This document shows, one piece after another, positions 3,273 through 60,199 of a DNA stretch of 61,066 bases. Below the pieces are notes generated by a model. That model was not told the DNA's origin. It saw nothing but the letters and a program-made list of their open reading frames with translations, and did no database searches. The stretch is taken from NCBI GenBank assembly GCA_039648995.1, contig JBBWZH010000215.1, positions 1-61,066 of the forward strand, read 5' to 3'. The position numbers were made by a program, and so were the translations under genes. Origin of the DNA: Mycobacteriales bacterium. GTDB lineage: Bacteria > Actinomycetota > Actinomycetes > Mycobacteriales > CADCTP01. How positions within the stretch are numbered: position 1 is the first letter of the stretch; each line of letters starts with the position of its first letter.

Positions 3273-3311
3273 AGGCGAACCTCTCTTGATAACGCTGGTG
3301 GGCGCGGGCGG

Positions 3312-15300: not shown

Positions 15301-15302
15301 AC
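3312..15302 (-). CDS. Type I modular PKS, 2 modules: KS-AT(malonyl)-DH-ER-KR-ACP / KS-AT(methylmalonyl)-DH-KR-ACP (modules 3-4)
   Basis: ORF 3312..15929; the real start is probably GTG 15302 ([18 protein letters not shown] docking helix) or TTG 15314. Module 3: [28 protein letters not shown] plus HPALLD, ER LNFRDV..LGMYP and [13 protein letters not shown] and YAAGN, ACP GFDSL. Module 4: [32 protein letters not shown] and YAAAN, ACP GFDSL. C-terminal docking [10 protein letters not shown]. Confidence 0.96.
13771..13890. repeat. 30-bp direct repeat pair 90 bp apart in an expanded Ala/Pro-rich KS-AT linker
   Basis: GCGGCGGCCGGGACCGGGCCGGCGG(T/C)CGGC at 13771-13800 and 13861-13890 (one mismatch); encodes AGPVPAAA twice. 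Confidence 0.75.
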
Positions 15303-15324
15303 CTGGCTGGTCAACCCGCCGCCC

Positions 15325-27102
<11,778 letters not shown>

Positions 27103-28347: not shown

Positions 28348-29574
28348 ATGACGGACGTAAGGCCTGAGGGCGACGATCTTGCCGCGACATCGGCCGACCG
28401 CCGGAACGCACGGCTCTATCTGATCGGTCTCGGGCTCTCACTCGTCGGGGACAGCGCACTCAGCCTTGTTTCCGGGATCTGGGTCAAGTCCGACACCGGC
28501 AGCAGTGCCGCTGCCGGCCTCGTACAGGCGTGCATCTACGTTCCCTCGCTGCTCGCTCCGCTGGCCGGGCTGCTCGTCGATCGGATGCCGCGGCAGCGCT
28601 TTCTTGTCGTCGTGAACGTGTGCTCGGCATTCGTCGTGGCGGTACTCCTGCTGGTCACCGATCCGGGCCGGATCTGGCTCATCTACCCGGTGATGGTCGG
28701 GTACGGCGTCTCGCTGGTCCTGGTCGGGCCGGCCGAGAGCGCGCTGTTCGCGCACATGCTGCCGACCGCCGTCCGGCGGCGGGTGAACGGCTGGCGGCTC
28801 GGGATGCAGGAGATGGGCCGACTGGTCGCGCCGCTGCTGGGCGCCGCGCTCTTCACCTCGCTCGGTGGGCCGGCGGTGGCGGCCCTGGACGCCGTCACGT
28901 TCGTCGCCGCCGCTGCGGCGACGGCGCTGCTCAGGCCGCCGAGCGAACCCCCACCGCCGCCGAGACAGCGATGGCGGACCGAGATGGGCGCCGGGATCGC
29001 TCATACCCGGGCGACACCGGCGCTGGCCCGCATCGTCGGGACCGCGGCCATGATCATGGCCGTGTCCGGCCTCGGCGTGAGCGCGCAGTACAGCCTGGTC
29101 GAGGGCCTGGGAAAGTCACCCGGCTATTTGGGCGTGCTCACGGCCGTGCTCGGCGCCGGGTCCGTGGTCGCAAGCCTGGTGAGCTCTCGAATCATCGGGC
29201 GGCTCGGCCTGATTCCGGTCGAGCTGTGCGGGCTCGGCGCTTACGCGGTCGGCAGCCTGCTGCGGGTGTTCGACAGCAGCGCGGCGGCGATAGCCGGGTC
29301 CTTCGTCCTGGGCTTCGCGCTGCCGTGGGTGTTCCTGGTCACCCTCAGCGCGGCTCAGGATATGACGCCGACCTGGCTGCAGGGCCGGGTGAACGCCGTC
29401 GTCATCTTCCTCCTGTTCGCGCCGCAGGCACCGCTGCAGGCTGTTGGCGCGTTCCTCATCGCGCACTTCTCCTATCAGGCCATTTACGCGGCGTCGGCGT
29501 CGGCGGCGGCCGTCCTCATGGTGTACACCTATATCGCCGATTCCCGGATCAAGCGCGTGCGAAACGACAGTTGA
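28348..29574 (+). CDS. Major facilitator superfamily exporter (DHA3/macrolide-efflux-like)
   Basis: 408 aa with about 12 hydrophobic segments; motif A-like AGLLVDRMPRQRFL; N-terminal LSLVGD; C-terminal QDMTPTWLQGRVNA. Confidence 0.9.
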   Translation: MTDVRPEGDDLAATSADRRNARLYLIGLGLSLVGDSALSLVSGIWVKSDTGSSAAAGLVQACIYVPSLLAPLAGLLVDRMPRQRFLVVVNVCSAFVVAVLLLVTDPGRIWLIYPVMVGYGVSLVLVGPAESALFAHMLPTAVRRRVNGWRLGMQEMGRLVAPLLGAALFTSLGGPAVAALDAVTFVAAAAATALLRPPSEPPPPPRQRWRTEMGAGIAHTRATPALARIVGTAAMIMAVSGLGVSAQYSLVEGLGKSPGYLGVLTAVLGAGSVVASLVSSRIIGRLGLIPVELCGLGAYAVGSLLRVFDSSAAAIAGSFVLGFALPWVFLVTLSAAQDMTPTWLQGRVNAVVIFLLFAPQAPLQAVGAFLIAHFSYQAIYAASASAAAVLMVYTYIADSRIKRVRNDS

Positions 29575-29715: not shown

Positions 29716-30912
29716 ATGAGCCAGGTACGACTTCCCGGTTTCGTCGACGCCAACCGCTCGGGCGATCTCGACCCGTACCCCAACTTCGCCTGGCTTCGGG
29801 CCACGACGCCGATCACCCAGGTACCCGGGTCGGCGGGCGAGGGAAACGTCTGGTTCGTGACGTCGTACGCGCTGGCCCGGGCGTGCCTGGCGGACCGCCG
29901 GCTGAGCCACGAACGCACGAACGCGAAGAATGCCGACGGCCTGTCGCTGGACCACGGCGACATGCTGGGTTCGGACCCGCCGGACCACTCACGGCTGCGG
30001 CACCTGGTTAGCCCCGTGCTCAGCTCGGGCGCGATCGAGAAACTTCGCCCAATGGTGGCGCGGGTGTGCTCCGAACTCATCGACTCCTTCGCCGCGAAGG
30101 GCAGCGCCGAGCTCGTCGGGGAGTTCGCGTGGCCGATCCCGTGGGCGGTGATCCACGACTTCTACGGCATCCCCGAGTCCGAGCGGATGGAGGTGAGCCG
30201 CTGCATCGACCGGTTCCTCGTGGCCGGCTACATCGAGCAGCCGCTCGGCGGCGGCCCGGCGAGCGAGGAGCTGGGCGAGTACGTCCACCGCCTGATCGCG
30301 TACAAGCGGACGCACCGCGGGGACGACCTCACGACGCGGATGATCGAGGGGCTCGAGCGCGGCGTGGTGCGCAGCGAAGCGGAGCTCGAAGGCATGCTCT
30401 ACGTGCTCCTCGGCGCCGGCCAGGTGAGCACCGGGCCGCTCATTGCCGCGGCGGCGCTGCGGCTGCTGGAGAATCGGTCCGAACTGGCGCAGCTCATGGC
30501 CGGTCGGCGGAGTTGGCGGGCCGCCGCGGAGGAGTCGTTGCGCTTCGACTCGCCCGTGCAGACCTCGGTCCGCCGGTACGCGTTGGTGGACATGAAGCTG
30601 GGCGACGCCGAGATCGCGGAGGGCGACACTGTCGTCGTCTCGCTGGCCGCCGCGAACCGGGACACCGACTGGTTCGACGACGCCGAGCGGTTCGTGGTCC
30701 GTACACGCCGGTCGAACCTCGCGTTCGGCCACGGAATCCACCTCTGCATCGGGGCGCCGCTCGCCCGGCTGGAGGGTGAGGTGGCGTTGCGGCTGCTGTT
30801 CTCCCGGCTGCCGGGTCTCCGGCTCGCGATCGCACCGCAGGACGTCGCCTGGATCCTCGGTCCGAAGCTGCGCAGCCCTCGCGAGGTCCCGGTGGTCTTC
30901 GACGCAGGCTGA
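29716..30912 (+). CDS. Cytochrome P450 (CYP107-like) with atypical I-helix
   Basis: GAGGGAG RBS; DPYP, DPPDHSRLR, ExxR (EESLR), heme motif FGHGIHLCIG; I-helix reads AGQVST instead of AGxET. Confidence 0.95.
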   Translation: MSQVRLPGFVDANRSGDLDPYPNFAWLRATTPITQVPGSAGEGNVWFVTSYALARACLADRRLSHERTNAKNADGLSLDHGDMLGSDPPDHSRLRHLVSPVLSSGAIEKLRPMVARVCSELIDSFAAKGSAELVGEFAWPIPWAVIHDFYGIPESERMEVSRCIDRFLVAGYIEQPLGGGPASEELGEYVHRLIAYKRTHRGDDLTTRMIEGLERGVVRSEAELEGMLYVLLGAGQVSTGPLIAAAALRLLENRSELAQLMAGRRSWRAAAEESLRFDSPVQTSVRRYALVDMKLGDAEIAEGDTVVVSLAAANRDTDWFDDAERFVVRTRRSNLAFGHGIHLCIGAPLARLEGEVALRLLFSRLPGLRLAIAPQDVAWILGPKLRSPREVPVVFDAG

Positions 30913-30938: not shown

Positions 30939-31592
30939 TCAGTCCCGGGTCGGCAGCCGGCGGATGGCGGCGGCGGTCTCCGCGTCCGCCGCGCGGCCGC
31001 GGTCGATCAGGCCGGTGCAGATCCGGTCCCGGGTGGCGGCGTCCTTCTCCTGGCTCAGCTTGAACATGCCGTCCGCGGCGAGGACCGACATGGCGAACGC
31101 CCCGACGCCGGGGAGGATCCGCCGGAAATACTCCAGCGACCGGTCCTGCGTCCAGCCGAGGCCGAACCGGCCCTCGAGGCGGCGCGCGGTCTCGCGCACC
31201 ACCTTGAGTGTCTCGTCGCCCGGCGCAAGGGGCTCGATGCTGACGCGGGCGTGCACGACGCTGAAGTCCCACGTCGGCGCCGCCGGCTGCACGCCGTACC
31301 AGGCGGGGGACACGTAGGCGCCTGGCCCGCTGAAGACGAGCGTGCCATGCGTCCCGCCGCGCAGCGCTGCCCAGTGCGGGTTGGCGCGGTTCATGTGGCC
31401 GAGCAGCCGGGCACCGACCAGCCCGGTAGGGCCGCCGCCGTCGTCCAGGTCTCCGGCGGCCGGAACGACGGGCACGTGCGTCGCCCACGGCTCGGCCGCG
31501 CCGTTGGTGGTGAGCAGGGCGAGCGGGTTGTCGAGGACGAGCGCGCGTGCCCACGCCGGGTCCGGCGGGCGGTACTGGCCGGGGACGAACAT
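30939..31592 (-). CDS. pzbB: Piperazate synthase (KtzT/PzbB-type heme N-N bond-forming enzyme, PaiB/FMN-binding fold)
   Basis: MFVP start, GHMNRANPHW (candidate heme-ligand His), YVSPAWY, APTWDF, FKLSQEK; directly downstream of an ornithine N-oxygenase. Confidence 0.9.
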   Translation of the reverse strand: MFVPGQYRPPDPAWARALVLDNPLALLTTNGAAEPWATHVPVVPAAGDLDDGGGPTGLVGARLLGHMNRANPHWAALRGGTHGTLVFSGPGAYVSPAWYGVQPAAPTWDFSVVHARVSIEPLAPGDETLKVVRETARRLEGRFGLGWTQDRSLEYFRRILPGVGAFAMSVLAADGMFKLSQEKDAATRDRICTGLIDRGRAADAETAAAIRRLPTRD

Positions 31593-31596
31593 CTCG

Positions 31597-32946
31597 TCAC
31601 CGCGCGTTCTGGCTCACCGGCAGGTCGATCATCGAGGTGAGGATCTCCCCGGCGCGGACGGCCACGTTGGACAGCAGCGACGAGGACAGCCCGTGGGTGT
31701 GCTCGCTGCCGCCCTGGACGTAGATGCCCGCGTGCACCGCGTCGGTCGTCAGCACCTGGTAGGACCGGGAGATCCGCAGCCGGCCGTTCGCGTCGCGCAG
31801 GCACGCGCCGGCGATGTCTGGCAGCAGGTCCGTGGGGTCCATCTGGGTGTAGCCGGTGGCGAGCACGACCAGATCCACCGCCAGGCGCTCGCAGGCGAAC
31901 GTCTGGCGGGAGGCGAGGTCGAGCACCGGGCGGCCGTCGTCGGCGGCGGTGATGCCGGTCAGCTGCCGCATCGGGTACATGAGCAGCCGCGGCCGCCCCG
32001 CCACCAGTTCTCCATACACGCGCTTGTAGAGGTCGGAGATCAGGTGCTCGTCCACGACCGAGTAGTTCGTGTTGGCGTGGTACTGGAAGATCTGCCGGCG
32101 ACCCTCCGCGGTCGCCGTGTAGTAGTCGTCGACCGCGTCGGGGTCGAAGACCCTGTTCGCGAACGGCGTGTTGTCCGCCGCGCTGTAGCCGTACCGCTGC
32201 ATCACGCAGTACACGGTCGCGGTGTCGAACCGCTCGTGCAGGTACGCCGTGGCCTCGGCCGCGCTCTGACCGGACCCGACGACCGCGATCGATCGCGGCG
32301 GCGCGGCGCGGAGGCTGCCGACCTTCGACATCAGCTCCGAGGTGTGCCAGACGCGGTCGGACAGCGCCGTGCCGACCGGCATCCGGGGTGTCATGCCGGT
32401 TGCCAGCACCACGTTGTGGGCCCGCAGCGGCGCCGCGGCGGCCCGGGTGGTGGCGTGCCGGCTCTCGATCTCGAACATCGTCACCGTGCCCTCGGCGTTC
32501 ACCGGGCGGATCCGGGTCACCTCCCGGTCGTAGCCGACGAGGTTCCTGACCCCGTCGGCCACCCAGGTGAGGTAGTCGTGGAACTCGGATCGGGTGGGGA
32601 AGAAGTCCTTCTGGTTGATGAAGTGCGCCAGCCGGCCGTGCTCGAAGAGGTAGTTGACGAACGTGAACCTGCTCCGGGGATCGCGCATGGTGGCCAGGTC
32701 CTTGAGGAACGCGACCTGCATGGTGGCCCCCTCGATCATCATCCCGAGGTGCCAGCCGAACCGCGGCTGGCGCTCGAGGAAGGCCGCCCGGATCAACGGG
32801 CCGCCCACCTGCTCGTTGCGCTCCTGGACGGCAACCGCGAGCGAGAGGTTGGAGGGTCCGAACCCGATGCCGACGAAATCCAGCAGGTCGTGCCGCGGAT
32901 GATCGTCATCGGCGAACCTGGCGGCACTCCGACGTACCGACTCCAT
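31597..32946 (-). CDS. pzbA: L-ornithine N5-monooxygenase (KtzI/PzbA, IucD/PvdA family)
   Basis: FAD motif GIGFGPSNL, FGWHLGMM, FLKDLATMRDP, NADPH motif GSGQSAAE, DLVVLATGY, THGLSSSLLSN. Confidence 0.95.
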   Translation of the reverse strand: MESVRRSAARFADDDHPRHDLLDFVGIGFGPSNLSLAVAVQERNEQVGGPLIRAAFLERQPRFGWHLGMMIEGATMQVAFLKDLATMRDPRSRFTFVNYLFEHGRLAHFINQKDFFPTRSEFHDYLTWVADGVRNLVGYDREVTRIRPVNAEGTVTMFEIESRHATTRAAAAPLRAHNVVLATGMTPRMPVGTALSDRVWHTSELMSKVGSLRAAPPRSIAVVGSGQSAAEATAYLHERFDTATVYCVMQRYGYSAADNTPFANRVFDPDAVDDYYTATAEGRRQIFQYHANTNYSVVDEHLISDLYKRVYGELVAGRPRLLMYPMRQLTGITAADDGRPVLDLASRQTFACERLAVDLVVLATGYTQMDPTDLLPDIAGACLRDANGRLRISRSYQVLTTDAVHAGIYVQGGSEHTHGLSSSLLSNVAVRAGEILTSMIDLPVSQNAR

Positions 32947-32997: not shown

Positions 32998-33957
32998 CTA
33001 GCGCGCCGGCCGGCCGTCGAGGGCGTCGGCGGCGGCCTCGGCGACGTCGGCGGCCGACGGCAGGACGACCGCCTGCAGCGTCGGGCTCGCCGGGATGGGG
33101 CATGGGTCGCTCGCCACCACGCGCAGGCCGACGGGTTCCACCGCCCCGCTGGTGAGCAGGTGCAGGCCGAGGTCGTTCATCAGCGAGCAGGCACCGATCG
33201 CCTCGTCGACGAGCACGGCCGCCCGGGTGGTGGACGCCAGCAGCGCCACACCGTCGCGGTCGAGCGGAGCGGCCGTGCGCAAGTCGACCACCTGGGCGCT
33301 GATGCCGCGCTGGGCCAACTGGTCCGCGGCGGTGAGGCAGTCGGTGACGGTGTTGCCGATGCCGACGAGCGTGACGTCCGTGCCCTCCCGCACGCGGTGC
33401 GCCAGGCCGAAGGGGATCGGGTCGAAGGTGGGCTCGATGTCGGTGGCCGTGTCCCACCCGGGGAAGAAGATCCGCGACGTCTCCAGGATCACGACCGGAT
33501 CGGGGTGGTTGAGTGCGGTCGCCATGAGGCCGGCGGCGCTGTTGACGGAGGAGGGCACCGCGACGACCAGTCCGGGCACCTGACACAGCATCGAGTGCGG
33601 GACGTGCTCGTGCTGCGATCCGGAGTTCTCCCCGCACCGCGTGATGGCCAGGACGAGCAGCGGTACGGAGTACTGACCGTCGCTGAGGTACCGCCACTTC
33701 GTGGCCTGGTTCACGAGCGGGTCCATCGCGGTGAAGAGGAAGGCGGCCCGGGCGAGGTCGACGACCGTCCGCCGACCCGTCATGGCCAGGCCCACGCCGA
33801 TGCCCATCATCGCGTTCTCGGAGATCGGCATGCACACCGAGCGGTCTGCGCCGTACGTGCGCTCCCACCCGGCCACCCGGGTCGTCGCGAGGTAGGTCAG
33901 CTCGGGCTGCTCGTCCATGGCGCGTTCGAAGACGACGTTGATCGGGTGCTGGCTCAT
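32998..33957 (-). CDS. ThDP-dependent 2-oxoacid/acetoin dehydrogenase E1 beta-like subunit (transketolase C-terminal fold)
   Basis: ATG 33957 overlaps the alpha-subunit stop (ATGA); MPISENAMMGIGVGLAMTG, DPLVNQATKWRYLSDGQ, SGSQH, REGTDVTLV, VVDLRTAAPLD. Confidence 0.9.
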   Translation of the reverse strand: MSQHPINVVFERAMDEQPELTYLATTRVAGWERTYGADRSVCMPISENAMMGIGVGLAMTGRRTVVDLARAAFLFTAMDPLVNQATKWRYLSDGQYSVPLLVLAITRCGENSGSQHEHVPHSMLCQVPGLVVAVPSSVNSAAGLMATALNHPDPVVILETSRIFFPGWDTATDIEPTFDPIPFGLAHRVREGTDVTLVGIGNTVTDCLTAADQLAQRGISAQVVDLRTAAPLDRDGVALLASTTRAAVLVDEAIGACSLMNDLGLHLLTSGAVEPVGLRVVASDPCPIPASPTLQAVVLPSAADVAEAAADALDGRPAR

Positions 33958-34931
33958 CGCACATCGCTCCCGGCGAGGGCGGCGCCGAACGGCGCGACGG
34001 TCACGCTGGACAGCGCCGTGTCGACCGGGGTCGGCGGCGCCGCCAGCGCGCCGCGGACCGCCTCGGCCACCGCCGCCGAGGCCGCGTCGAGCACGGGTTG
34101 CGGGTCGGTGCCCAGCGACCGCAGGCGCTGCCCCGCACGGAGGAGGGGGTCCTTCGCCTTCCACCGCTCGACCTGGTCCGCCGGCCGGTACGCGGCGGGG
34201 ACGAAGTTCCGCAGCTGGGAGTGAAAGTCGCGCAGGTAGGTCCGGGCCACCAGCGCGGCCGGTCCGCCGCCGGCACGGCACACGTCCAGGACGCCGGACA
34301 TGGCCGAGGCGACCTGCTCGACGTCGTTGCCGTCCGCCTCGGTCACCTCGACGCCGAGGCCGCGAAGCAGCTCCGCGGGTTTCATCGGCATCACCGCGGG
34401 GCTCGGGTTGCGGTCCTGCCAGCCGTTGTCCTCGCAGACCAGCGCCAGCGGCAGGCCCTTCTGCCGGGCGATCATGAGGGTCTCGTACGCGACGCCCGCG
34501 CCCAGCGCGCCGTCACCGCAGAAGACCACCACCGCCCGACCGCTGCCCGCGGCCCGCTCCCCGAACGCCACGCCGGCCGCGATCGGAAGCTGCGACCCCA
34601 CGATCGAACTGGCGAGCAGGAACCGGCGGTCGCGGTCGCAGATCTGCATCGACCCGCTCTTGCCGCCGCAGATGCCGCCCGCGCGGTCCAGCATCTCGCG
34701 CAGGAGCGGGCCGATCGGGCTTCCGCTGGCGATCGCGTGGCCGTGGCACCGGTAGTACCCGACGACCCACTCGTCGGGTCGGCGCCCGGCGACGGCCCCG
34801 ACCGCGACCGCCTCGTGACCGGTGTACGGGTGGACGACCCCGGGCACCTCACCGCGTGCGGCCACCTCGAGCAGGGCCTCCTCGAAGGCCCGGATCAGGC
34901 ACATCTGCGCGTACAGCTCGGACAGGTCCAT
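33954..34931 (-). CDS. ThDP-dependent 2-oxoacid/acetoin dehydrogenase E1 alpha-like subunit
   Basis: IRAFEE, HPYTGHEA, YRCHGH, GGKSGSM, ThDP motif GDGA...CEDN, DGNDV, WKAKDPL. Confidence 0.92.
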   Translation of the reverse strand: MDLSELYAQMCLIRAFEEALLEVAARGEVPGVVHPYTGHEAVAVGAVAGRRPDEWVVGYYRCHGHAIASGSPIGPLLREMLDRAGGICGGKSGSMQICDRDRRFLLASSIVGSQLPIAAGVAFGERAAGSGRAVVVFCGDGALGAGVAYETLMIARQKGLPLALVCEDNGWQDRNPSPAVMPMKPAELLRGLGVEVTEADGNDVEQVASAMSGVLDVCRAGGGPAALVARTYLRDFHSQLRNFVPAAYRPADQVERWKAKDPLLRAGQRLRSLGTDPQPVLDAASAAVAEAVRGALAAPPTPVDTALSSVTVAPFGAALAGSDVR

Positions 34932-34940
34932 GTGTCCCCT

Positions 34941-37900
34941 CTACTCTCGACCGAGGCGTCGCCGGACTTCGGCTGGTCTCATCGCGGCGACGTCGGCCAG
35001 CACCAGTTCCTCGACGCGCCGGCTGATGGCACGCAAGGACCGCCCGTCGAAGATGGCCCGCAGCGGCAACGACAGCGCGAAGGTCTCGTTGACCCTGGTC
35101 CGCAGCCTCGTGGCGGACAGCGAGTTGCCGCCGAGCGCGAAGAAGTCGTCCTCGACCGACGGGTCTGAGACGTCCAGCACCTCGCACCACAGCCGGGCTA
35201 CCGCCTGCTCGGTCGGCGTCGCGGGCGGCGACGCGGCCACCTGCTCCGGGGCGAGCGACGCGAGTCGCCGCCGGTCGACCTTGCCGGACGGGGTGATCGG
35301 CAGCGTGTCGATCGACCGGACGACCTGCGGCAGCATGTAGGTCGGCAGCGTGCGGCCGGCGAAGTCGCGTATCTCGGTCTCGTCGGGTGTCCGGGCGCCC
35401 CGCCGCGGCACGCAGAAGGCGGTCAGTGTGGGGCCGGCGGCCGACCCGGTGAGCACGACCGCGACCTCGGCGATGGCGGGGTGCGCGGCGAGCACGCTCT
35501 CCACCTCCCCGGCCTCGATGCGATGCCCGCGGAGCGCCAGCTGCTGATCGAGCCGCCCCACGTACCGCAGCGACCCGTCGTCCTGCCAGACCACGAGATC
35601 ACCGGTCCGGTACATCCGGGCGCCGGGGCCCGCGCGGAACGGGTCGGGGACGAACCGGTCCGCGGTGAGCGCGGGCCGACGCCAGTAGCCCCACGCGACA
35701 GCGGCGCCACCGAGGTGGAGTTCCCCCACGGTGCCCTCCGGCACGAGGTCGCCGCGCGGGTCGAGTACGTACGCGCGCACGCCGGCGATCGGCCGCCCAA
35801 TGGAGTGGCCGGTCCACGGCGGCCACAGCTGCCCGCTCGCCGTCGCCACCACGGTGTTCTCGGTGGGGCCGTAGTGGTCGACGACCGGCAGGCCAGGGCT
35901 GTGCTCGGTGCCGGGCCGGAACACGTCGCCACCGGTCAGCACGGTGCGCAACGCGGTCCGCCGGCCGAGTGGGTGCCTGATCACCTGCTCGGCGAGCGGG
36001 GTCGGCAGGAACGCGATCGTGACGCCGGAACCGGCGAGCCAGTCGACCAGCCGGTCCGGATCCCGGACCGCCTCCTGCGGGCACGGTCGCACGGTGCACC
36101 CCGCGATCAGGGCCGGCCACAGCTCCCACCCCATCGCGTCGAACGACGGGCTCGCGACCTGGGCCACGGTGTCACGCGGGGTCAGCTGGTACCGGCCGAG
36201 GTGCCAGTCGACGAGCGAGTTCATCTGCCGGTGGGCGATCGCGACGCCCTTGGGGCGGCCGGTCGAGCCCGACGTGTACGTGACGTAGAGGAGGTCGTCC
36301 GGGTGTCCGTCCGGGGCCGGCGCGTGCCGGCTCGCGGACGCCCCGGGCGCCGCGCCGGGGGAGACGCGGACGGCGTCCGTGCGGTCCTGATCGGTGATCA
36401 GGACGGTGGCACCGGCGTCGCCGAGCTGGAACGTGACCCGGTCGCGCGGCAGCTCGACATCCATCGGCAGGTAGGCGGCGCCCGCGACCAGCACGGCGGT
36501 GAGCGCGACCACGAGGTCCGTGCCGCGGGCCAACAACACCCCGACCACGTGGCCGCGCCGGACGCCGCGGGCCCGTAGGACGCCGGCCAGGCCGGACGCG
36601 CGGTCCCACAGCTCCTGGTAGGTGCAGGTGCCGTCGTCGGTGCGGACGGCGACCCGGCCGGGCGCGGTCCGGGCGACCCGCGCGATGCGGCTCGCGAGGT
36701 TCTCCGCCGGCAGGCCGCTCGCTGCGCCGTCGCCGAGCGCCAGCAGCCGCGCCCGGTCGGCCCGGCCGATCAGCTCGATGTTCGCCAACGGCTCGTCCGG
36801 CGCGCGGGAGGCCCGGTCCAGCAGCTCGACCAGGTGCTGCGCGAGTCGCCCGGCGGTCGCGGTCCGCACCCGGTCGACCGCGTAGGTCAGCACCCCTTGG
36901 AGCCGGTCTCCGTCGGTCCACCACTCGAGTTCGGTGTCGAATCGCGACCGGGTGTTCGGCACCCGCAGCGGTTCACAGCTGGCTCCGGCCAGCTGCAGGA
37001 CGGGCTCGGTGAGCGTCCCGTCGTCGAGGCTGAACCAGTGCTGGAAGAACGGGTTGGCGGCGCCGCGGCGGGGCAGCGCCAACCGGACGGCCACGTCCTC
37101 GAACGGCACGTCCTGGTGGTCGAGCAGGTCCCACAGCCGGTCGCGTTGCCGCCGGACCAGGGAGCGCAAGCTGTGCCGCCGCAGACCGGTGGCGACGACC
37201 GGCACGGTCCTGGTGAAGTAGCCGACGGTGTCCTCGTCGTCGAGGTCGAGCCGGCCGGCCAGGGCGGTTCCCAGCACGCAGCTGTCGGTTCCGGCCGCCG
37301 CCGCGAGGAGGAACTGGTAGGCGGCCAGCACCACGGTGAACAGCGAGGTGTGCTCCTCGGCCGCGAGCGTGCGCAGGCGAGCGGTCAGGTCGCCGTCGAT
37401 GGCGCAGCTGACCTCCGTCGCCGCGGTCGACTCTGAGCCGGGGACCGGCGGGAGCCGCTCCACCAGCAGCTCCTCGACGCCGGCCAGCTCGTGCGCCCAG
37501 AAGTCCACGTCGGCCGGTGCCGGGTCGCGGCGGGCCGCGGTCACCTGGTCGACGAACGACCCGGCCGGCGGCTCCCCAGCCGCCGGCACTGCCCCGGGGC
37601 GCCCGCCCGCCGCGGCGCGTTCGTACACCCGGCTCAGGTCACGTTCCACGGTGAGCCGCGATGGGCCGTCGACGACGATGTGGTGGACGGCCAGCACCAG
37701 GACGGCGTCCGCGGGGCCGAGCCGGGCGAGCACGAGCCGCAGCAGGTTGCCGTCGGCCAGCTCGAAGGGCCGGGTGGCGCGGTCGACGGCGTCCCGGAGC
37801 GCGGCGTCCGGCTGCCCGGCAGCGGCGTCGATGACCTCGAGCCGCGGCGACGCCGTGTCGGCCATCATGACCGGACCCGTCGCGCTGTCCACGATCGAGA

Positions 37901-38087
37901 CCCGCAGGGCGTCGTGCCGCGCGACCACCGCGTCCAGCGCCCGCGCGAGCGCGGCCACGTCGAGCGGCCCGCGGACCCGGTAGCCGCGGACGATCAGGTA
38001 CGCCTGGTCCTCCGCGAGCTGCTCGACCAGCCACAGTCGGTGCTGCTCCGGCGACAGCGGTACGGCGCGAGCCGCCCGGAGGCTCAC
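34941..38087 (-). CDS. NRPS module C-A(Leu predicted)-T
   Basis: 3' part of ORF 34941..39464; GTG 38087 overlaps the upstream stop (GTGA). C HHIVVDG; [22 protein letters not shown]; specificity code read by eye DAWFLGHVVK (Leu-type); T GGNSL. Confidence 0.93.
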
Positions 38088-39919
38088 CTCCCGTCCTCCG
38101 CGACCAGCTTCTCGACCGTGCCGGCCAGGCCCTCGACGGTCGGGTGCTCGAACACCGCGACGAGCGGCAGGTCGACGTCGAAGACCTCGCGGATCTCGTA
38201 GACGACCCGGGCGACGAGCAGGGAGTGCCCGCCGAGCGCGAAGAAGTTGTCCCGCACGCCGACCACATCCCGGCCCAGGACGGTGCTCCAGATCTCGGCG
38301 ATCGCCGCCTCGGTGTCGGTCCGGGACCGCACCGTCTCCGGCGCCGCCGGGTTGGGCCGGGGGAGCTCGGCCCGATCGACCTTGCCCGTGGCGAGCAGCG
38401 GGAATGCGTTGATCACGACGAAGACCTCGGGCACCATGTGCGCCGGCAGGACGGACGAGGCGTGCGCGCGCACGGTGTCCACGTCGACCGGCGCCGCGGA
38501 TGCGCGCGTGACGTAGGCGGTCAGCGCCGGCCGGTCGTCCGGCCCGATCCCGGCCAGCAGCACGGCCGCGCGGTCGACCTGCGGGTGTGCCGCCAGCGCC
38601 CGCTCGACCTCGGCCGGCTCGACGCGGTAGCCGCGGACCTTCACCTGGAAGTCGCTGCGGCCCATGAACTCCAGCCGGCCACCCGTACGCCACCGGCCCA
38701 GGTCGCCAGTGCGGTACATGCGGGCGCCCGGCGTGGCGGAGAACGGGTCCGGCACGAAGGACTGCGCCGTGACGCCGCCCTGACCGAGGTAGCCGCGGGC
38801 CAGCGGGTCGCCGCCGATGTAGATCTCGCCGACGACGTTGCGGGGCGCCGGTGTCAGCGCGGGTTCGAGGACGTAGACCCGGGCGCCCACGATCGGGGCC
38901 CCGAGCAGGGGTTGGTCGGGCCAGGCCGCGGCGGGCTGTTCGAGCCGGGGAGCGACCACGACGTTGACCTCGGAGGAGCCGTAGTGATCGTCGAGCACCG
39001 TGCCGTCGCCCAGCGCGGTCACCATGTCGCGGAGCTCCGGGGTGATCGTGAGGCGCTCGCCCGTCGTGATCAGCTCGCGGAGCGAGGCGATGCCCGAGAA
39101 GTCCGGCGCGCAGTGCTCGGCAAGCTGGTGTAGCACCGCGACCGGCAGCAGCGCCCGGGTGATGCTGTGGTTGGCGACGAGGCCGGCGACGGCCGCGATG
39201 TCGTGGCGCTCGGCGTCGGTCGCCACGACGAGGCAGCCGCCGGTGCCCCAGGTCATGAAGATCTCCAGGGACGCGACGTCGGACGTGGCCGGAAAGTAGT
39301 GCAGCGCGGTCGCCCGCTCCGCGTACCGCATGCGCGACCACTCGACGAGCCGGACCTGAGGGTGGTGCGTCATCGCGATCGCCTTGGGCCGCCCGGTGGA
39401 CCCCGAGGTGCGGATGACGTACTGGAGGGAGTCGCCGCGGACCGTCGCCTTCGGCCTGATCCACTGGCCGGGGCCGGGGTCGTCGCCGCCGGCGGTCACC
39501 CCCCGCAGCCCCGGGCCGAGCCCGGCGGCACGACCCGCCAGGCCGGGGTCGGTCACGACCACGCCAACACCGGCCGAGCCGAACGACGCGGCGAGGTAGT
39601 CGTCCGGGTCCGCGGGGTTGACCGGCAGGTAGGCCGCTCCGGCCCGCAGGACGCCGAGGAGTGCCACCGGCAGCTCGGCGGACCGCTCCATCAGCACGCC
39701 GACGACCCGCTCCGGACCAACCCCGCGATCACGCAGTTCGCAGGCGAGACGGCAGGCGCGGCGGTCCACCTCGGCGTACGTCAGCGTGACCGCACCACAG
39801 CGGACGGCGGCGGCGACGGGCGTGCGCTCCAGCCATTCGTCGAACTGGTCGAGGACCGAGACGGACTCGTCCACCGGTGCGGCCCCGGTCGCGGCGGGCG
39901 GTACGAGCTGGTGCGCCAT
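38084..39919 (-). CDS. NRPS A-T didomain (Pro-like code; piperazate candidate)
   Basis: ATG 39919 with [10 protein letters not shown] inside ORF 38084..40471; [25 protein letters not shown]; code by eye DVLLITHVVK (compare Pro DVQLIAHVVK); T GGHSL. Confidence 0.92.
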
Positions 39920-39948: not shown

Positions 39949-41625
39949 TCACAGGGTCCGGGCAGCGGTCGCGGACCGGGCGAGTTCGGCCCGGTCGACC
40001 TTGCCGTTGATGGTCAGCGGCAGGCGCGGCACGGCGATCCACCGCTGCGGGACCATGTACGCGGGCAGCCGCGTCCTGGCGAAGGCGAACAGGTCCCGCT
40101 TGGCCGGAGCGGCGCCGCCGGCGAGCACGAGATAGGCCACCAGCCGGGTGGGACCGCGCTCGTCGGGCTCGGCCGCGACACACACCGACTCCACGTGCGG
40201 GTGCGCGCGCACCGCGGCCTCGACCTCGCCGAGCTCGATGCGGTGGCCGCGTATCTTCACCTGGTCGTCGGCCCGCCCGAGGAACACGAGCCGGCAGTCG
40301 GCGTCGACCCGGGCGAGGTCGCCCGACCGGTACAGCACGGTCGCGTCCGGATCCCCGACGTGGACGAAGCGGCTCCGGGTGAGCGCCGGCCGGTTCAGGT
40401 AGCCCAGGGCCACGCCCGCGCCGCCCACCCACATCTCCCCGGTGGTCCCGTCCGGCACCGGGGCGCCGCACTCGTCGACCAGGTAGACGCGCAGATCCCG
40501 GAGCGGCCGGCCGATGGTACGGGCGCCGGAGCGGAGATCCCCTGCACCGACCTCATGCGCGGTGACGTGCACGGTGGTCTCGGTGATGCCGTACATGTTG
40601 ATCAGGCGCGGCCGGCCCAGCGGGTGGCGCTCGACCCACGGGACCAGGGTACGGTAGTCCAGCGCTTCGCCGCCGAAGACCACATGCGTCAGGGCCAACT
40701 CCGGTGGGCTGTCCCGGCGTGCCTCCTCGGCCAGGAGCAGGCTGAACGCGGACGGGGTCTGCGACAGGACGGTCACCCGCTCGGCGGCGAGCAGGTCCAG
40801 GAAGCGCGCCGGGTCGCGGCTCACCTCGTAGGGCACGACGACGAGGCGGGCGCCGTGCACCAGCGCACCCCAGATCTCCCAGACCGAGAAGTCGAAGGCG
40901 AACGAGTGGTAGAAGGTCCACACGTCCTCGCCGGTGAACCCGAACAGCTGCTCGGTGGCGGAGAACAGCCGCGCCACGTTGCCCTGCGTCACGCGGACGC
41001 CCTTGGGCGCGCCGGTCGAGCCGGAGGTGTAGAGCACGTACGCGACGTCCCCGGCGGTGACCCTGCCGCCGGTGGCGTCGGTGCCCGGTCCGCCCGGCGC
41101 CGGCAGGAGGTGGTGGTCCGGGTGGGCCACGGGCCCGGTCAGGTGCACGATGTCGAGGTCGCCGTCGGCCGGTCGCCAGCCGCCTCCGCAGTCGACCGCG
41201 ACGCGGAGCGCGCTGTCCCGGGCGATACCGCTCAGCCGGGTCTCCGGGTTGACCGGGTCCAGCGGAACGTACCCGGCAGCCAGCTTGTGTACCGCCACGA
41301 TCCCGACGACCAGACCGGGCGACGGGCGTCCGGTGAGCCCGACGAGGCTGCCACCCCCCACCCCGTGGCGGGTCAGTTCGGCCGCGAGCGCCGAGGCGCG
41401 CGCGTCCAGCTCGCCGTAGCTCATGCTGGTCCCGCCCGCCGAGACCGCGATCCGCCGGGGCCACGTCGCGGCGACCTTCTCGAAAGTGCGCACGCACGGC
41501 GTGAGCGACGGATCGGCAGCGGGCGGCGGGTCCCGCCGCACCGCGCGCAGCAGGGCGTCGCCGGGCCGGGGGAGCGGCGTCCCCGCGGCATCCCCGGCGA
41601 GCGGCCGGCGACCGGGGTCACTCAC
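39949..41625 (-). CDS. Stand-alone NRPS adenylation domain (Thr predicted)
   Basis: Likely GTG 41625 overlapping the upstream stop; YTSGSTGAPKG, HSFAFDFSVWE, NMYGITETTVH, NGKVDR; code DFWSVGMVHK (canonical Thr); no T domain follows. Confidence 0.93.
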   Translation of the reverse strand: MSDPGRRPLAGDAAGTPLPRPGDALLRAVRRDPPPAADPSLTPCVRTFEKVAATWPRRIAVSAGGTSMSYGELDARASALAAELTRHGVGGGSLVGLTGRPSPGLVVGIVAVHKLAAGYVPLDPVNPETRLSGIARDSALRVAVDCGGGWRPADGDLDIVHLTGPVAHPDHHLLPAPGGPGTDATGGRVTAGDVAYVLYTSGSTGAPKGVRVTQGNVARLFSATEQLFGFTGEDVWTFYHSFAFDFSVWEIWGALVHGARLVVVPYEVSRDPARFLDLLAAERVTVLSQTPSAFSLLLAEEARRDSPPELALTHVVFGGEALDYRTLVPWVERHPLGRPRLINMYGITETTVHVTAHEVGAGDLRSGARTIGRPLRDLRVYLVDECGAPVPDGTTGEMWVGGAGVALGYLNRPALTRSRFVHVGDPDATVLYRSGDLARVDADCRLVFLGRADDQVKIRGHRIELGEVEAAVRAHPHVESVCVAAEPDERGPTRLVAYLVLAGGAAPAKRDLFAFARTRLPAYMVPQRWIAVPRLPLTINGKVDRAELARSATAARTL

Positions 41626-43192
41626 CGCTGGAGCCGGCGGGAACGGCGGCCGTGGACGCATCGAGCAGCGCCGCCCGAAGCTCGTCCAGGAGCGCCTGGG
41701 CCGCGGTCGGGGACACCTGGTCGGGGTCGTAGCTGACCATCGCCCCGGTGCCGAGCATGGGGTCCTCGGTGAAGACGTCGACCATGACCGGGAACGTCGC
41801 CACGTCCTCGGTCCACCACCCGGCCACGGCGACGCTCGCCAGCCGCTCCAGCTCGCCGACGACGTGGAGGTGGGTGAAGTTGAAGGTCACGTCGAACAGC
41901 GGGCCGCCCGCGTCGCTGGTCATCGTCGCGAGCGGGTACCGGCGGTACGGGTACATCTCGCGCTCCGCGTCGAGCGCCGCCCGCGCGATCTCCGGCCAGC
42001 CGCCGCCGGTGCGCAGCGCCAGCGGCACCGTGTTGAGGAACAGGCCGACGAGCAGGTCCGCGCCGTCGATCTCCGGCCGGCCGTTCGTCACGAGCCCGGT
42101 GACCACCTCCGCCGCGCCGCGCCAGCTGCCGACCGCGCGGGCGTGCGCGGCGAGGCAGAGGCTCTTCACCGGCACCTGGAGGGCGGCCGCGGTGCGCGTG
42201 AGCCCCGCCCAGGCAGGCTCGTGCAGCGGCGCGACGAGCTGGCGCGACGCCCGCGCGACCTCGGCCCCCGGCACGGGGCGGGGCGCCCCTTCGGTGTGCC
42301 GCCGCCAGTACCGCTGCGCCGCGGGCGAGTTGATCGCCTTCCGCTCCAGCCGCACGAACTCGGCTCCGCCGCCGCTCGGGATGTCGGGCAGCTCGGCGGT
42401 CGTGCCGCCCATCGCGGCGTCGTAGTGCAGGAGGAGGTCGACCATGAGGCGGGTGAAGCTCCAGCCGTCGAGCACGCTGTGGTGCGTCGCGAGGGTGAGC
42501 CAGAAGTGGTCCGGCGCGGTGCCGACGTGGCAGCGCAGCGGCGGTGCGGCGGCGGTGTCGATCCCCTCGTCCACGACCTGCTGCCGCCATCGCGCGATGA
42601 CCGCGCGAGCGTCGTCGCGCTCGCCGAGCGCCGACCACTCCGGCGCCACCGTGGCGTGCGGCAGCACGATCTGCGCCGCGACCGGGTAGCTCGCGAGGTC
42701 GAAGTAGCTGCGCAAGCTCTCGTGCCGGGCCACCACGCGGGCGAGCGCGGTGCGCAGCGCGCCGGGCTCGACCGCGCCGCTGACCCGTACGCCGCAGAAG
42801 TCGACGTAGATGCCGGTGCTCGGGCCCGCCATCTCGGTCAGGAAGAGCATGCCGACCTGCAGGCCGCTCGCCGGTCTGATGGCGCTCGCGCCGGCCGGCG
42901 GCGCGAGCGCCGGGCCGCTGGCCGGCGAACCGGCCCCGGCGGCTTCCGGCCCGACCGGGACGCGCGCGCACCGCGCCAGCTGGCCGAGCGTCTGCGCGGT
43001 CAGGACGTCCGCAACCTCAATGGCCAAACCGCGCCTGGCCAGGCCCTCGATGACCTGGAGCGACCGCATCGAGTCGCCGCCGGCGGTGAAGAAGTTGTCG
43101 TCGAGTTCGACGGTGTCGTCACCCAGCACGTCCCGCACGACCGCGCGGACCGCGTCCTGGCGATAGCGGAGCCGCGGGTCGTCGCCGGCCAC
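41618..43192 (-). CDS. NRPS T-C didomain (GGDS-type T, DCL-like C)
   Basis: ORF 41618..43261; start GTG 43192 (GAGGAGGG RBS) or ATG 43249. T DNFFTAGGDSM; C LQVGMLF, HESLRSYFDL, HHSVLDGWS, TNGRPEIDGADLLVGLFLNTVP. Confidence 0.9.
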   Translation of the reverse strand: MAGDDPRLRYRQDAVRAVVRDVLGDDTVELDDNFFTAGGDSMRSLQVIEGLARRGLAIEVADVLTAQTLGQLARCARVPVGPEAAGAGSPASGPALAPPAGASAIRPASGLQVGMLFLTEMAGPSTGIYVDFCGVRVSGAVEPGALRTALARVVARHESLRSYFDLASYPVAAQIVLPHATVAPEWSALGERDDARAVIARWRQQVVDEGIDTAAAPPLRCHVGTAPDHFWLTLATHHSVLDGWSFTRLMVDLLLHYDAAMGGTTAELPDIPSGGGAEFVRLERKAINSPAAQRYWRRHTEGAPRPVPGAEVARASRQLVAPLHEPAWAGLTRTAAALQVPVKSLCLAAHARAVGSWRGAAEVVTGLVTNGRPEIDGADLLVGLFLNTVPLALRTGGGWPEIARAALDAEREMYPYRRYPLATMTSDAGGPLFDVTFNFTHLHVVGELERLASVAVAGWWTEDVATFPVMVDVFTEDPMLGTGAMVSYDPDQVSPTAAQALLDELRAALLDASTAAVPAGSSGE

Positions 43193-43241
43193 TGTCTCAC
43201 CCTCCTCGGGTCGGTGGGCGGCTGCCGCAGGAGGCAATCCG

Positions 43242-44999: not shown

Positions 45000-45221
45000 G
45001 TGGAAACCGTGGATGAGAGCCAGGTCGACGACTCGTTCGAGGTAGTCGTCAATCACGAAGAGCAGTATTCGGTGTGGCCGTCCGATCGGGAGCCACCCGC
45101 GGGTTGGCACCTCGAGGGGACCCGTGGCAGCCGGGATCAGTGCCTGGCACACATCGACACGGTGTGGTTGGACATCACCCCCAAGAGCGTCCGCGAACGG
45201 CTCGCCGCCGAGCGTGACTGA
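45000..45221 (+). CDS. mbtH: MbtH-like protein
   Basis: GGAGG RBS then GTG 45000; VVVNHEEQYSVWP, PPAGW, CLAHIDTVWLDITPKS with the three conserved Trp. Confidence 0.95.
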   Translation: METVDESQVDDSFEVVVNHEEQYSVWPSDREPPAGWHLEGTRGSRDQCLAHIDTVWLDITPKSVRERLAAERD

Positions 45222-52736: not shown

Positions 52737-52737
52737 C

Positions 52738-60096: not shown

Positions 60097-60199
60097 CCGA
60101 GTTTCGTCCGCGACCGACGCCGCGCGGCATGCGTCGGCTTACCGGCAGTTCCCGGAAGCGGGGTTGGCGTGGTCGTATGAGCGGGTGGTCGTTGGGGTT

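What the first reader, a model, noticed from the sequence alone, without database searches (positions are those of the whole stretch)
32998..34931. Orphan ThDP E1 alpha/beta pair inside the NRPS operon, possibly a carboligase acting on the released aldehyde
Seen: E1 alpha and beta are coupled (ATGA) and lie between the Leu module (9-nt gap) and the piperazate genes. No E2/lipoyl domain, E3, dedicated ACP or KSIII is in the window. They look divergent from housekeeping E1 (GSMQ rather than GSMH, RDFHS rather than GHS). Established: cluster-encoded E1-like pairs transfer C2 units, for example NapB/NapD and QncN/QncL (glycolyl from ketose into an NRPS), AviB1/AviB2 (acetyl onto a keto-sugar) and PglB/PglC (phenylglycine route). 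Inference: with an R domain in the same cluster, the pair could add an acetyl or hydroxyacetyl anion equivalent to the peptide aldehyde, giving a C-terminal acyloin or ketol. Alternatively it makes a non-proteinogenic substrate for one of the two unassigned A domains.
Basis: inference. Interest (0 to 1): 0.75.

Follow-up and report, generated by a model that had tools for sequence, protein, structure and literature searches.

The report
Orphan thiamine enzyme tied to reductive NRPS
A divergent two-subunit thiamine-dependent enzyme sits in a hybrid peptide-polyketide gene cluster without its usual partners, and its closest relatives always lie beside an unusual aldehyde-releasing peptide synthetase, so it probably extends a peptide aldehyde by a carbon-carbon bond.

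Summary
E1 alpha (33954-34931, minus) and E1 beta (32998-33957, minus) overlap by ATGA. They lie 9 nt after a C-A-T NRPS gene and 51 nt before a KtzI/KtzT-like pair. The contig has no E2, lipoyl domain, E3, KSIII or free ACP.

The pair is not housekeeping. It scores at half the curated PDH cut-offs and is 29-37% identical to the genome's other E1 alphas. It falls in a separate, rare actinomycete family of about 112 tree rows.

That family splits by context:
- About 77 rows form two clades; the 15 of these rows whose context is known lie in clavusporin-type RiPP clusters.
- A 28-row clade (support 100) holds the window and all three NRPS-linked metagenome loci.

In the 28-row clade, E1 travels with an unusual NRPS protein of order C-T-R-A (window 46976-51433) and an orthologous MFS.

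Carboligation onto the released aldehyde is the best reading (about 0.4) but is untested. GSMQ is not a family trait. Bases 3-27102 encode PKS, not NRPS.

The parts
33954..34931 (-). E1 alpha-like ThDP subunit (325 aa, P0001)
   Evidence: Pfam E1_dh 142.6 bits. TIGR03182 gives 195.8 bits against a cut-off of 393.85. The GDG...EDN ThDP motif and the invariant His in FHS are present.
32998..33957 (-). E1 beta-like subunit (319 aa, P0002); its ATG overlaps the alpha stop (ATGA)
   Evidence: Transket_pyr plus Transketolase_C. NF006667 gives 163.2 bits against a cut-off of 321. It lacks the GEDxG..GGVF segment found in the genome's housekeeping betas.
46976..51433 (-). NRPS protein of order C-T-R-A (1485 aa), the conserved partner of this E1 clade
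   Evidence: Domains: C 24-460, T 501-564, NAD_binding_4 603-841, A 992-1330. Full-length relatives are P0124 (64% identity), P0125, P0126 and P0127, and L031 with P0243-P0245.
28348..29574 (+). MFS transporter, orthologous to the MFS beside E1 in L030/L031
   Evidence: 54% identical to the L031 MFS and 51% to the L030 MFS, against 30% to the MFS of the RiPP-type loci.
43242..44726 (-). Stand-alone condensation domain protein (494 aa)
   Evidence: Pfam Condensation 242 bits. 44% identical over its full length to the stand-alone C beside E1 in L032.
34941..38087 (-). NRPS C-A-T gene directly upstream of E1 alpha; its GTG start overlaps the stop of the A-T gene (GTGA)
   Evidence: A 9-nt gap separates it from E1 alpha.
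38084..39919 (-). A-T didomain gene (611 aa, within P0122), hidden in another frame of the long ORF
   Evidence: Codon-position GC profile, translation, carrier domain at 38117-38305.
31597..32946 (-). KtzI-like Lys/Orn N-oxygenase, 51 nt after E1 beta
   Evidence: PF13434 at 350.7 bits.
30939..31592 (-). KtzT-like FMN_bind_2 protein, 4 nt after the N-oxygenase
   Evidence: PF04299 at 117.8 bits.
39949..41661 (-). Stand-alone A domain (570 aa)
41618..43261 (-). T-C protein
45124..46989 (+). A-T protein on the opposite strand
51483..52865 (-). Cytochrome P450
52738..56802 (-). NRPS A-MT(FkbM)-T-C
29716..30912 (+). Cytochrome P450
   Evidence: It is only 32% identical to the P450 of the RiPP-type loci.
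15325..27102 (-). Type I PKS, two modules (KS-AT-DH-KR-ACP, KS-AT-DH-ER-KR-ACP)
3312..15929 (-). Type I PKS, two modules. The real start is probably near 15300, because the docking domain lies at residues 211-238 of the listed ORF.
3..3311 (-). Type I PKS, KS-AT-..KR, cut off by the contig end

Best explanation
The pair is a dedicated secondary-metabolic ThDP enzyme that works without an E2. It belongs to a distinct, rare actinomycete branch of the E1 alpha/beta family. In the subclade that holds the window, it works together with the NRPS protein C-T-R-A.

Proposed mechanism:
1. The A domain loads the T domain.
2. The C domain adds the upstream acyl or peptidyl group.
3. The R domain releases an aldehyde.
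4. The E1 decarboxylates a 2-oxo acid (pyruvate is the simplest guess) to a ThDP-bound acyl-anion equivalent.
5. The E1 adds this to the aldehyde, giving an alpha-hydroxyketone (acyloin). Later modules, or tailoring, then use this product.

Shown: the gene anatomy, the missing partners, the intact cofactor and catalytic residues, the separation from housekeeping E1, and the conserved neighbourhood.

Inferred: that the aldehyde is the acceptor, the identity of the donor, and the product.
For: Not housekeeping:
- Scores are half the curated cut-offs.
- Identity to the five other E1 alphas of the same genome is 29-37%.
- In the tree, about 112 family rows separate from the 4 own-genome housekeeping rows.
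- No orthologue was found in 0 of 60 relatives, or in 0 of 400 genomes sampled from the class.

Partners missing on the contig.

Catalytic set kept: GDG...(E)DN, the beta Glu in PISEN, alpha His (28/28, 81/81 and 20/20 rows) and beta His.

Conserved partner:
- The 28-row clade (SH-aLRT 100) holds the window and L030, L031 and L032.
- L031 has a full C-T-R-A protein, an MFS 54% identical to the window's, and then E1 alpha and beta.
- L030 has C-T-R (cut by the contig end) plus the MFS.
- In L032, an A domain 52% identical to the A of the window's C-T-R-A (36% to another window A domain) ends where E1 alpha starts. A stand-alone C 44% identical to the window's lies next to it.
- P0012 and P0126 are both from Kibdelosporangium.

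Architecture is rare: in the two searches only 10 listed rows, among them a truncated copy of the window's own protein (P0123) and one row at 55% coverage (P0246), carry C, T, R and A in a protein of 1287-1765 aa.

The sister clades pair E1 with a class-III aminotransferase (11 of 15 RiPP-type loci), an enzyme class that interconverts amines and aldehydes or ketones. So each branch couples the E1 to an enzyme that makes or uses a carbonyl.

The beta subunit lacks a 9-residue segment around GEDxG..GGVF that the housekeeping betas have. From memory, not tested here, this segment lines the active-site entrance.
Against: - No assay, product or structure exists. Co-occurrence with C-T-R-A cannot tell the R domain from the A domain as the functional partner.
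- Both His residues that classical E1s use for reductive acylation of lipoamide are retained, so a dehydrogenase-type transfer is not excluded.
- In the window, E1 is co-transcribed with a different NRPS gene (C-A-T) and the piperazate genes. It lies 12 kb from C-T-R-A.
- L030 and L031 have identical E1 alpha and count as one case.
- Five E1 alpha rows of the clade on contigs over 20 kb (P0005, P0008, P0010, P0017, P0021) had no C-T-R-A row of matching contig length among the 120 rows listed in either search.
- An acyloin has no carboxylate. How the product would re-enter the assembly line that continues into the PKS is unexplained.
Confidence: 0.4

Rival explanations
1. Precursor supply. The E1 joins a 2-oxo acid to a small acceptor such as glyoxylate, or simply decarboxylates it. 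This makes a non-proteinogenic building block that the co-conserved A domain of C-T-R-A, or another A domain, activates.
For: The conserved partner protein carries an A domain as well as an R domain. In L032 that A domain ends exactly where E1 alpha starts. L031 also encodes a diaminobutyrate-type aminotransferase (TIGR00709, 402.4 bits against a cut-off of 401.6). The window has six A domains, none assigned here.
Against: The window and its genome (78% complete) have no orthologue of either aminotransferase type: best identity is 31-35% and there is no hit on the contig. The pocket residues of the C-T-R-A A domain are conserved among the window, L031, L032 and P0126. They read D-L-T-(T/K)-V-G-E-V-G-K. 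From memory, not tested, this resembles Asn/Asp codes, which would mean an ordinary amino acid. It does not explain why an R domain is always fused.
Confidence: 0.2
2. Classical oxidative decarboxylation. The pair borrows a lipoyl-E2/E3 from primary metabolism, or another oxidant, to make an acyl thioester. This would serve as a starter for the C domain or the PKS.
For: Both catalytic His residues are conserved. The genome has at least five E2 genes elsewhere. E1 pairs of this kind are known beside PKS/NRPS clusters: in passages of PMC3943440, orf8-orf10 lie next to the polyoxypeptin cluster with a lipoyl protein and a KSIII.
Against: No lipoyl protein, E2, E3, KSIII or free ACP is on the contig, in L031 or in L032. 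The beta subunit has lost a segment conserved in E2-dependent betas. The pair is absent from relatives that have the housekeeping complexes. Nothing explains the tie to C-T-R-A.
Confidence: 0.12
3. Plain decarboxylase. The E1 turns a 2-oxo acid into an aldehyde, which a transaminase aminates. Alternatively the T-R didomain, run in the oxidising direction, captures it as a thioester. That would be an E2/E3-free way of loading.
For: The E1 is linked with carbonyl-handling enzymes in both branches of the family. T and R are fused in the partner protein.
Against: Reverse use of a thioester reductase domain has no precedent that I know of (from memory). L031 has only one T domain for both tasks. 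No aminotransferase is in the window.
Confidence: 0.07
4. The pair serves the piperazate branch: it modifies ornithine, N5-hydroxyornithine or piperazate.
For: E1 beta, the N-oxygenase and the KtzT-like gene are spaced by 51 and 4 nt in one operon.
Against: No KtzI or KtzT homologue is in any of the 23 related loci. The piperazate route as I recall it needs no ThDP step.
Confidence: 0.05

Closest known systems
Heterotetrameric 2-oxo acid dehydrogenase E1 (PDH, BCKDH and Thermus 2-oxo acid DH; PDB 3EXF, 1UM9, 1W85)
   Same: Same fold families and subunit split. The ThDP motif, the beta Glu and both catalytic His residues are kept. The best solved relatives are human PDH E1 alpha (E 1.1e-26) and Thermus E1 beta (E 1.8e-37).
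   Different: No E2 or E3. Scores are half the NCBIfam cut-offs. The alpha has CEDNGWQD and TYLR[DH]FH[SA]Q in place of the usual motifs. The beta lacks the GEDxG..GGVF segment. The context is biosynthetic.
Acetoin dehydrogenase E1 (AcoA/AcoB)
   Same: Many relatives carry the automatic JGI name 'acetoin:DCPIP oxidoreductase subunit alpha'. From memory, Aco E1 cleaves an acyloin, which is the reverse of the reaction proposed here.
   Different: No AcoC/AcoL partners. The name is automatic. No Aco sequence could be compared here.
Cluster-encoded E1-like or transketolase-like C2 transferases (AviB1/AviB2, AlmDI/DII; NapB/NapD, QncN/QncL; PglB/PglC; AziC5/C6), all from memory
   Same: ThDP enzymes recruited into biosynthetic clusters without a full dehydrogenase complex. 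Several add a C2 unit to a carbonyl acceptor.
   Different: Those act on keto-sugars, use a lipoyl/ACP relay, or make acyl-CoA. None is reported with a C-T-R-A NRPS or a RiPP cluster.
Reductive release followed by carbonyl tailoring (myxochelin MxcG R domain plus MxcL aminotransferase, from memory)
   Same: An NRPS R domain makes an aldehyde that a separate enzyme processes. L031 even has a class-III aminotransferase beside C-T-R-A.
   Different: Here the conserved tailoring enzyme is a ThDP E1 pair. The R domain sits inside the protein and is followed by an A domain.
Clavusporin (mpc) and daptide RiPP pathways
   Same: The sister clades of this E1 lie with a B12 radical SAM C-methyltransferase (TIGR03975, 570.7 bits), DUF5825, an MFS and short precursors, as in mpc clusters (passages of bioRxiv 10.1101/2024.01.23.576971). 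Their aminotransferase is closest to the daptide model NF041821 (257.4 bits, below the cut-off of 450).
   Different: The passages I read in the clavusporin and daptide papers mention no ThDP enzyme. The window has none of these RiPP genes.

Membership tests
2-oxo acid dehydrogenase E1 alpha/beta (Pfam E1_dh; Transket_pyr + Transketolase_C) | Domain families and split into alpha and beta | tested here: met
   142.6, 63.6 and 78.9 bits, all above the Pfam cut-offs.
2-oxo acid dehydrogenase E1 alpha/beta | ThDP/Mg motif GDG...NN, cofactor-activating Glu in beta, catalytic His in alpha and beta | tested here: met
   Alignments to human, Thermus and Geobacillus E1. Column counts. NN reads DN here.
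Pyruvate dehydrogenase E1 (NCBIfam equivalogs TIGR03182, TIGR03181, NF006667, NF008854) | Score above the curated cut-off | tested here: not met
   195.8 against 393.85, 144.8 against 411.35, 163.2 against 321, and 158.8 against 454.
2-oxo acid dehydrogenase complex | E2 with lipoyl domain, and E3, in the operon or nearby | tested here: not met
   No PF00198, PF00364 or PF02852 hit on the contig. None in L031 or L032.
2-oxo acid dehydrogenase E1 beta | N-terminal GEDxG..GGVF segment | tested here: not met
   a 9-column gap in the window and in 6 relatives. The segment is present in own-genome L001 and L004 and partly in L005.
E1 + lipoyl protein + KSIII + ACP starter cassette (as beside the polyoxypeptin cluster) | Free lipoyl protein, KSIII and ACP next to E1 | tested here: not met
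   none on C126.
Glycolyl-transfer systems NapB/D and QncN/L/M | E2-like lipoyl/acyltransferase protein and dedicated ACP; sequence relatedness | tested here: not met
   No lipoyl domain or free ACP on the contig. Sequence relatedness is not testable because no reference sequences were on hand.
Sugar C2-branching E1 pairs AviB1/B2 and AlmDI/DII | Deoxysugar genes in the cluster; sequence relatedness | not testable with these tools
   No sugar genes were seen among the window ORFs scanned.
The new E1 family, NRPS-linked subclade (defined here) | Placement in the 28-row clade; C-T-R-A NRPS and orthologous MFS on the same contig | tested here: met
   (SH-aLRT 100).
RiPP-linked sister clades of the family | B12 radical SAM, DUF5825, 254-aa protein and class-III aminotransferase beside E1 | tested here: not met
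   None in the window. No radical SAM orthologue in the genome. The best aminotransferase identity is 31-35%.

The most novel reading that the evidence does not exclude
This E1 family is a set of peptide-directed carboligases used by both ribosomal and non-ribosomal pathways. Each branch pairs the ThDP enzyme with a generator of a peptide-bound carbonyl. In the NRPS branch the generator is the R domain of C-T-R-A. In the clavusporin-type RiPP branch it is a class-III aminotransferase, acting for example on the Lys-rich precursors MKIKKV.IKKVTHGTCKY. The E1 then forges a C-C bond onto the peptide. That post-assembly reaction has not been described for either peptide class.
Probability: 0.25. 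Interest if true: 0.85.

Novelty: new variant of a known kind. Interest (0 to 1): 0.62.

Why it matters
ThDP E1 pairs recruited into biosynthesis are known, but each known case has a different acceptor. Here an uncharacterised branch is tied by comparative genomics to two kinds of peptide pathway. Its NRPS-linked subclade comes with a rare fused protein, C-T-R-A.

If the E1 extends a peptide aldehyde, this would be a new way to build acyloin or ketol units, or after transamination amino-alcohol units, inside peptides. It would also be a portable enzyme pair for C-C bond formation on peptide aldehydes.

L031 offers a five-gene test system: aminotransferase, C-T-R-A, MFS, E1 alpha and E1 beta. 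That system makes the question directly testable.

Tried and rejected
- **GSMQ as a signature.** Rejected. It occurs in only 10 of 28 rows of the nearest clade and in 0 of 81 rows of the sister clades.
- **Shared origin of the window's P450 and MFS with those of the RiPP-type loci.** The P450 is 32% and the MFS 30% identical, which is generic similarity. The MFS is instead orthologous to that of L030/L031.
- **RiPP-type partners elsewhere in the genome.** No radical SAM hit. The best aminotransferase identity is 31-35%. The genome is only 78% complete.
- **Orthologues in kin.** 0 of 60 relatives and 0 of 400 class genomes (only 5 candidates were scored per genome). 5 of 400 further genomes of the family of G456 had a match, at 45-58% identity, none in the NRPS subclade.
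- **A-domain specificity from solved structures.** LgrA ranks first only because two of its domains add up (183 + 242 bits). No assignment is possible.
- **Orthology of the two aminotransferase types.** 29% identity, so they are not orthologous.
- **The 254-aa protein of the RiPP loci.** No Pfam family. There are only faint ferritin-like and DUF455 hints at E 0.16-0.21.
- **Earlier notes of this scan.** Nothing found.
- **Literature.** Nothing describes this pair.
  - one paper, polyoxypeptin.
  - 4 papers hold at least 4 of the 5 terms; by title and abstract none bears on this.
  - bestatin/AHPA, nothing relevant.
  - none of the 20 papers listed holds 'acetoin dehydrogenase'.
  - 0 papers.
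  - 4 papers, all irrelevant.
  - Subscription journals are not in that library.
- **Queries that could not be made.**
  - More of the metagenome contigs (records not held).
  - Accession look-up of cluster members (database off).
  - Protein atlas (machine unreachable).
Full report
**Observation**

On the minus strand an ATG at 34931 opens a 325-aa protein, and an ATG at 33957 opens a 319-aa protein. The two overlap as ATGA.

- The first protein matches Pfam E1_dh at 142.6 bits.
- The second matches Transket_pyr (63.6 bits) and Transketolase_C (78.9 bits).
- The upstream NRPS gene stops 9 nt before the alpha start. The gap, AGGGGACAC, looks like a ribosome-binding site.
- A Lys/Orn N-oxygenase gene follows 51 nt after the beta stop, and an FMN_bind_2 gene follows 4 nt later. 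Together these are the KtzI/KtzT-type piperazate pair.

Family searches of the whole genome place no relevant partner on this contig:

- no E2 catalytic domain (0 of 6 hits)
- no lipoyl domain (0 of 12)
- no KSIII (0 of 6)
- no E3 dimerisation domain (0 of 6)

All 10 carrier domains on the contig lie inside large synthases.

**Anatomy of the window, corrected**

The three largest ORFs (3-3311, 3312-15929 and 15325-27102, minus strand) have no C or A domains. They are modular type I PKS with KS, AT, DH, ER, KR, ACP and docking domains. The cluster is therefore a hybrid.

The codon-position GC profile shows that the ORF 34941-39464 changes frame near 38080. It is really two coupled genes:

- an A-T gene, 38084-39919
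- a C-A-T gene that starts at a GTG at 38087, overlapping the A-T stop

The NRPS part consists of:

- A-MT(FkbM)-T-C
- a P450
- C-T-R-A
- A-T on the other strand
- C
- T-C
- A
- A-T
- C-A-T

E1 alpha, E1 beta and the piperazate pair then follow. Next come an MFS and a P450 on the plus strand, and then the PKS genes. The only reductase domain is inside the protein C-T-R-A (46976-51433), not at the end of the line.

**Not housekeeping**

- The pair scores at about half the curated cut-offs of the PDH E1 models.
- The genome has at least six stronger E1_dh matches (169-290 bits, against 142 here) and five or six E2 genes on other contigs.
- Identity to those E1 alphas is 29-37%, and identity to the betas is 30-34%.
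- No orthologue was found in 0 of 60 relatives, including one genome of the same genus.
- None was found in 0 of 400 genomes drawn from the class, with the caveat that only five candidates per genome were scored.

**The family**

A search of 5.8 billion proteins listed about 100 clusters at 48-85% identity, all from actinomycetes where a name was given.

I built a tree of 134 rows. The rows were:

- the window
- 23 fetched loci
- 4 own-genome E1 alphas
- 106 listed proteins of at least 290 aa

Shorter proteins, exact duplicates and the partial or repeated own-genome loci L002, L008, L010 and L015 were left out.

The tree puts about 112 rows in one family, apart from the own-genome rows. Inside this family, a 28-row clade with support 100 holds the window together with L030, L031 and L032.

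The remaining rows fall into two clades that hold all loci from Micromonosporaceae and Pseudonocardiaceae.

**Two contexts**

I scored all 23 loci with one set of probe proteins. The contexts divide as follows.

- 15 loci carry RiPP-type partners, meaning a B12 radical SAM enzyme and/or a conserved 254-aa protein. Eleven of these also carry a class-III aminotransferase.
- 3 loci carry NRPS-type partners.
- 5 short or cut loci carry neither (L020, L024, L034, L036, L038).
- No locus mixes the two sets.

The radical SAM enzyme is a RiPP C-methyltransferase (TIGR03975, 570.7 bits). It comes with DUF5825, and short precursor genes such as MKIKKVSIKKVTHGTCKY... lie in front of it. This is the clavusporin (mpc) type (passages of bioRxiv 10.1101/2024.01.23.576971). 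The passages I read there name no ThDP enzyme or aminotransferase.

The aminotransferase is closest to the daptide model but falls below its cut-off (257.4 against 450 bits). The daptide papers use an alcohol-dehydrogenase-type decarboxylase, not ThDP (passages).

**The partner in the window's own clade**

- **L031** encodes, divergently, a diaminobutyrate-type aminotransferase and a 1918-aa protein with C, T, R and A in that order. On the other strand it encodes an MFS, then E1 alpha, then E1 beta.
- **L030** shows the same arrangement but is cut by the contig end. Its E1 alpha is identical to that of L031, so the two count as one case.
- **L032** has an A domain that ends where E1 alpha begins. 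That A domain is 52% identical to the A domain of the window's C-T-R-A, against 36% to another window A domain. A stand-alone C next to it is 44% identical to the window's stand-alone C.
- The L031 MFS is 54% identical to the window's MFS.

Two database searches with the C-T-R-A proteins found very few full-length look-alikes. These were P0124 (64%), P0125, P0126 and P0127 for the window, and P0243, P0133, P0244 and P0245 (61-70%) for L031. Everything else covered only a quarter to a third of the query.

I read this as the same contig.

P0126 and the E1 alpha P0012 are both from Kibdelosporangium. The printed sequence of P0126 has the order C, T, R, A.

Against this, five clade members on contigs over 20 kb gave no such match. 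The listings are capped, so this does not show absence.

**Sequence features**

- The ThDP motif, the beta Glu and the His residues of both subunits are kept.
- The family has its own motifs: HPYTGHEA, YYRCHGH, CGDGALG, CEDNGWQD and TYLR[DH]FH[SA]Q.
- GSMQ occurs in 10 of 28 rows of the window's clade. The sister clades have GSMH in 81 of 81 rows. The groups in that count were set by tree position, not by known context.
- All family betas examined (7 of 7) lack nine residues around the GEDxG..GGVF segment. Two of the three own-genome housekeeping betas have the segment in full, and the third has it in part.
- From memory, that segment contributes an aromatic residue to the active-site entrance. 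I could not test this.

**Mechanism**

Without lipoamide there is no oxidant or acyl acceptor for a dehydrogenase reaction. An E1 on its own is left with decarboxylation or carboligation; this follows from established ThDP chemistry.

In the window's clade the conserved neighbour is a protein that makes an aldehyde on a carrier-bound amino acid or peptide. In the sister clades the neighbour is a transaminase, which also makes or consumes carbonyls.

The simplest common reading is that the E1 adds a ThDP-bound acyl anion to such a carbonyl. I give this reading about 0.4.

Rival readings:

- It supplies a building block for the fused A domain (0.2).
- It is a borrowed-E2 dehydrogenase (0.12).
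- It is a plain decarboxylase (0.07).
- It has a role in piperazate formation (0.05).

The pocket residues of the fused A domain are conserved among four orthologues. From memory they resemble Asn/Asp codes, which would weaken the building-block rival, but this was not tested.

One problem remains open. An acyloin has no carboxylate, so it is unclear how it would feed the later NRPS and PKS modules.

**Known systems and novelty**

The nearest solved relatives are PDH and branched-chain E1. Automatic names point to acetoin dehydrogenase E1.

Cluster-encoded E1-like enzymes are known from memory: AviB1/B2, AlmDI/DII, PglB/C, NapB/D and QncN/L. None could be compared, because no sequences were on hand.

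Six literature searches found nothing on an E1 pair with an R-domain NRPS or with a RiPP cluster. The library lacks most subscription journals.

I rate this a new variant of a known kind.

**Limits**

- All functional statements rest on sequence and neighbourhood.
- The contigs of the closest relatives (P0003-P0008, 65-85% identity) could not be fetched.

Noticed in passing
window 3-27102 (-): The three largest ORFs are modular type I PKS (at least five modules, with docking domains), not NRPS. The last one runs off the contig, and no TE domain is visible.
   Followed up: partly
window 38084-39919 (-) and 34941-38087 (-): The 1507-aa ORF is an artefact of an open frame. A separate A-T gene lies in another frame and is coupled by GTGA to the C-A-T gene.
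   Followed up: yes
L017-L019, L021-L023, L025-L029, L033, L035, L037, L039: Clavusporin-type RiPP clusters (B12 radical SAM C-methyltransferase, DUF5825, MFS) also carry an E1 alpha/beta pair, a class-III aminotransferase closest to the daptide model, and a conserved 254-aa protein of no known family. The clavusporin and daptide passages I read do not mention this subtype.
   Followed up: partly
L018:7092-7562, L025:7356-7561, L017:12684-12826 and equivalents: Short precursor genes lie in front of the radical SAM gene: MKIKKV.IKKVTHGTCKY... and MKITVVKVKA.THGV.K... L018 has three copies. They are Lys-rich with a conserved THG.CKY core.
   Followed up: partly
window 46976-51433; L031:2057-7813; P0124-P0127, P0133, P0243-P0246: NRPS proteins with the order C-T-R-A (a reductase followed by an adenylation domain and no further carrier) are very rare in the database searches. 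L031 has an extra 172-aa N-terminus and a roughly 260-aa low-complexity linker.
   Followed up: partly
L031:153-12503: A possible minimal cluster: diaminobutyrate-type aminotransferase, C-T-R-A, MFS, E1 alpha, E1 beta and a small HAD-like protein, followed by a GntR regulator and mobile-element-like genes.
   Followed up: partly
window 52738-56802 (-): An FkbM-type methyltransferase domain (PF05050) is inserted in the A domain of the first NRPS protein.
   Followed up: no
window 58408-59721 (+): An integrase-core (rve) protein lies just beyond the last NRPS gene. It may mark the cluster edge. ORFs at 56834-57856 and 60164-61066 have no Pfam family.
   Followed up: no
G000:C684:20951-22546: Elsewhere in the genome, a lipoyl domain, a KSIII and a small ACP lie side by side.
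   Followed up: no
L017:8718-9764, L019:1628-2449: An aminoglycoside 3-N-acetyltransferase gene lies directly upstream of E1 alpha in two Pseudonocardiaceae loci.
   Followed up: no
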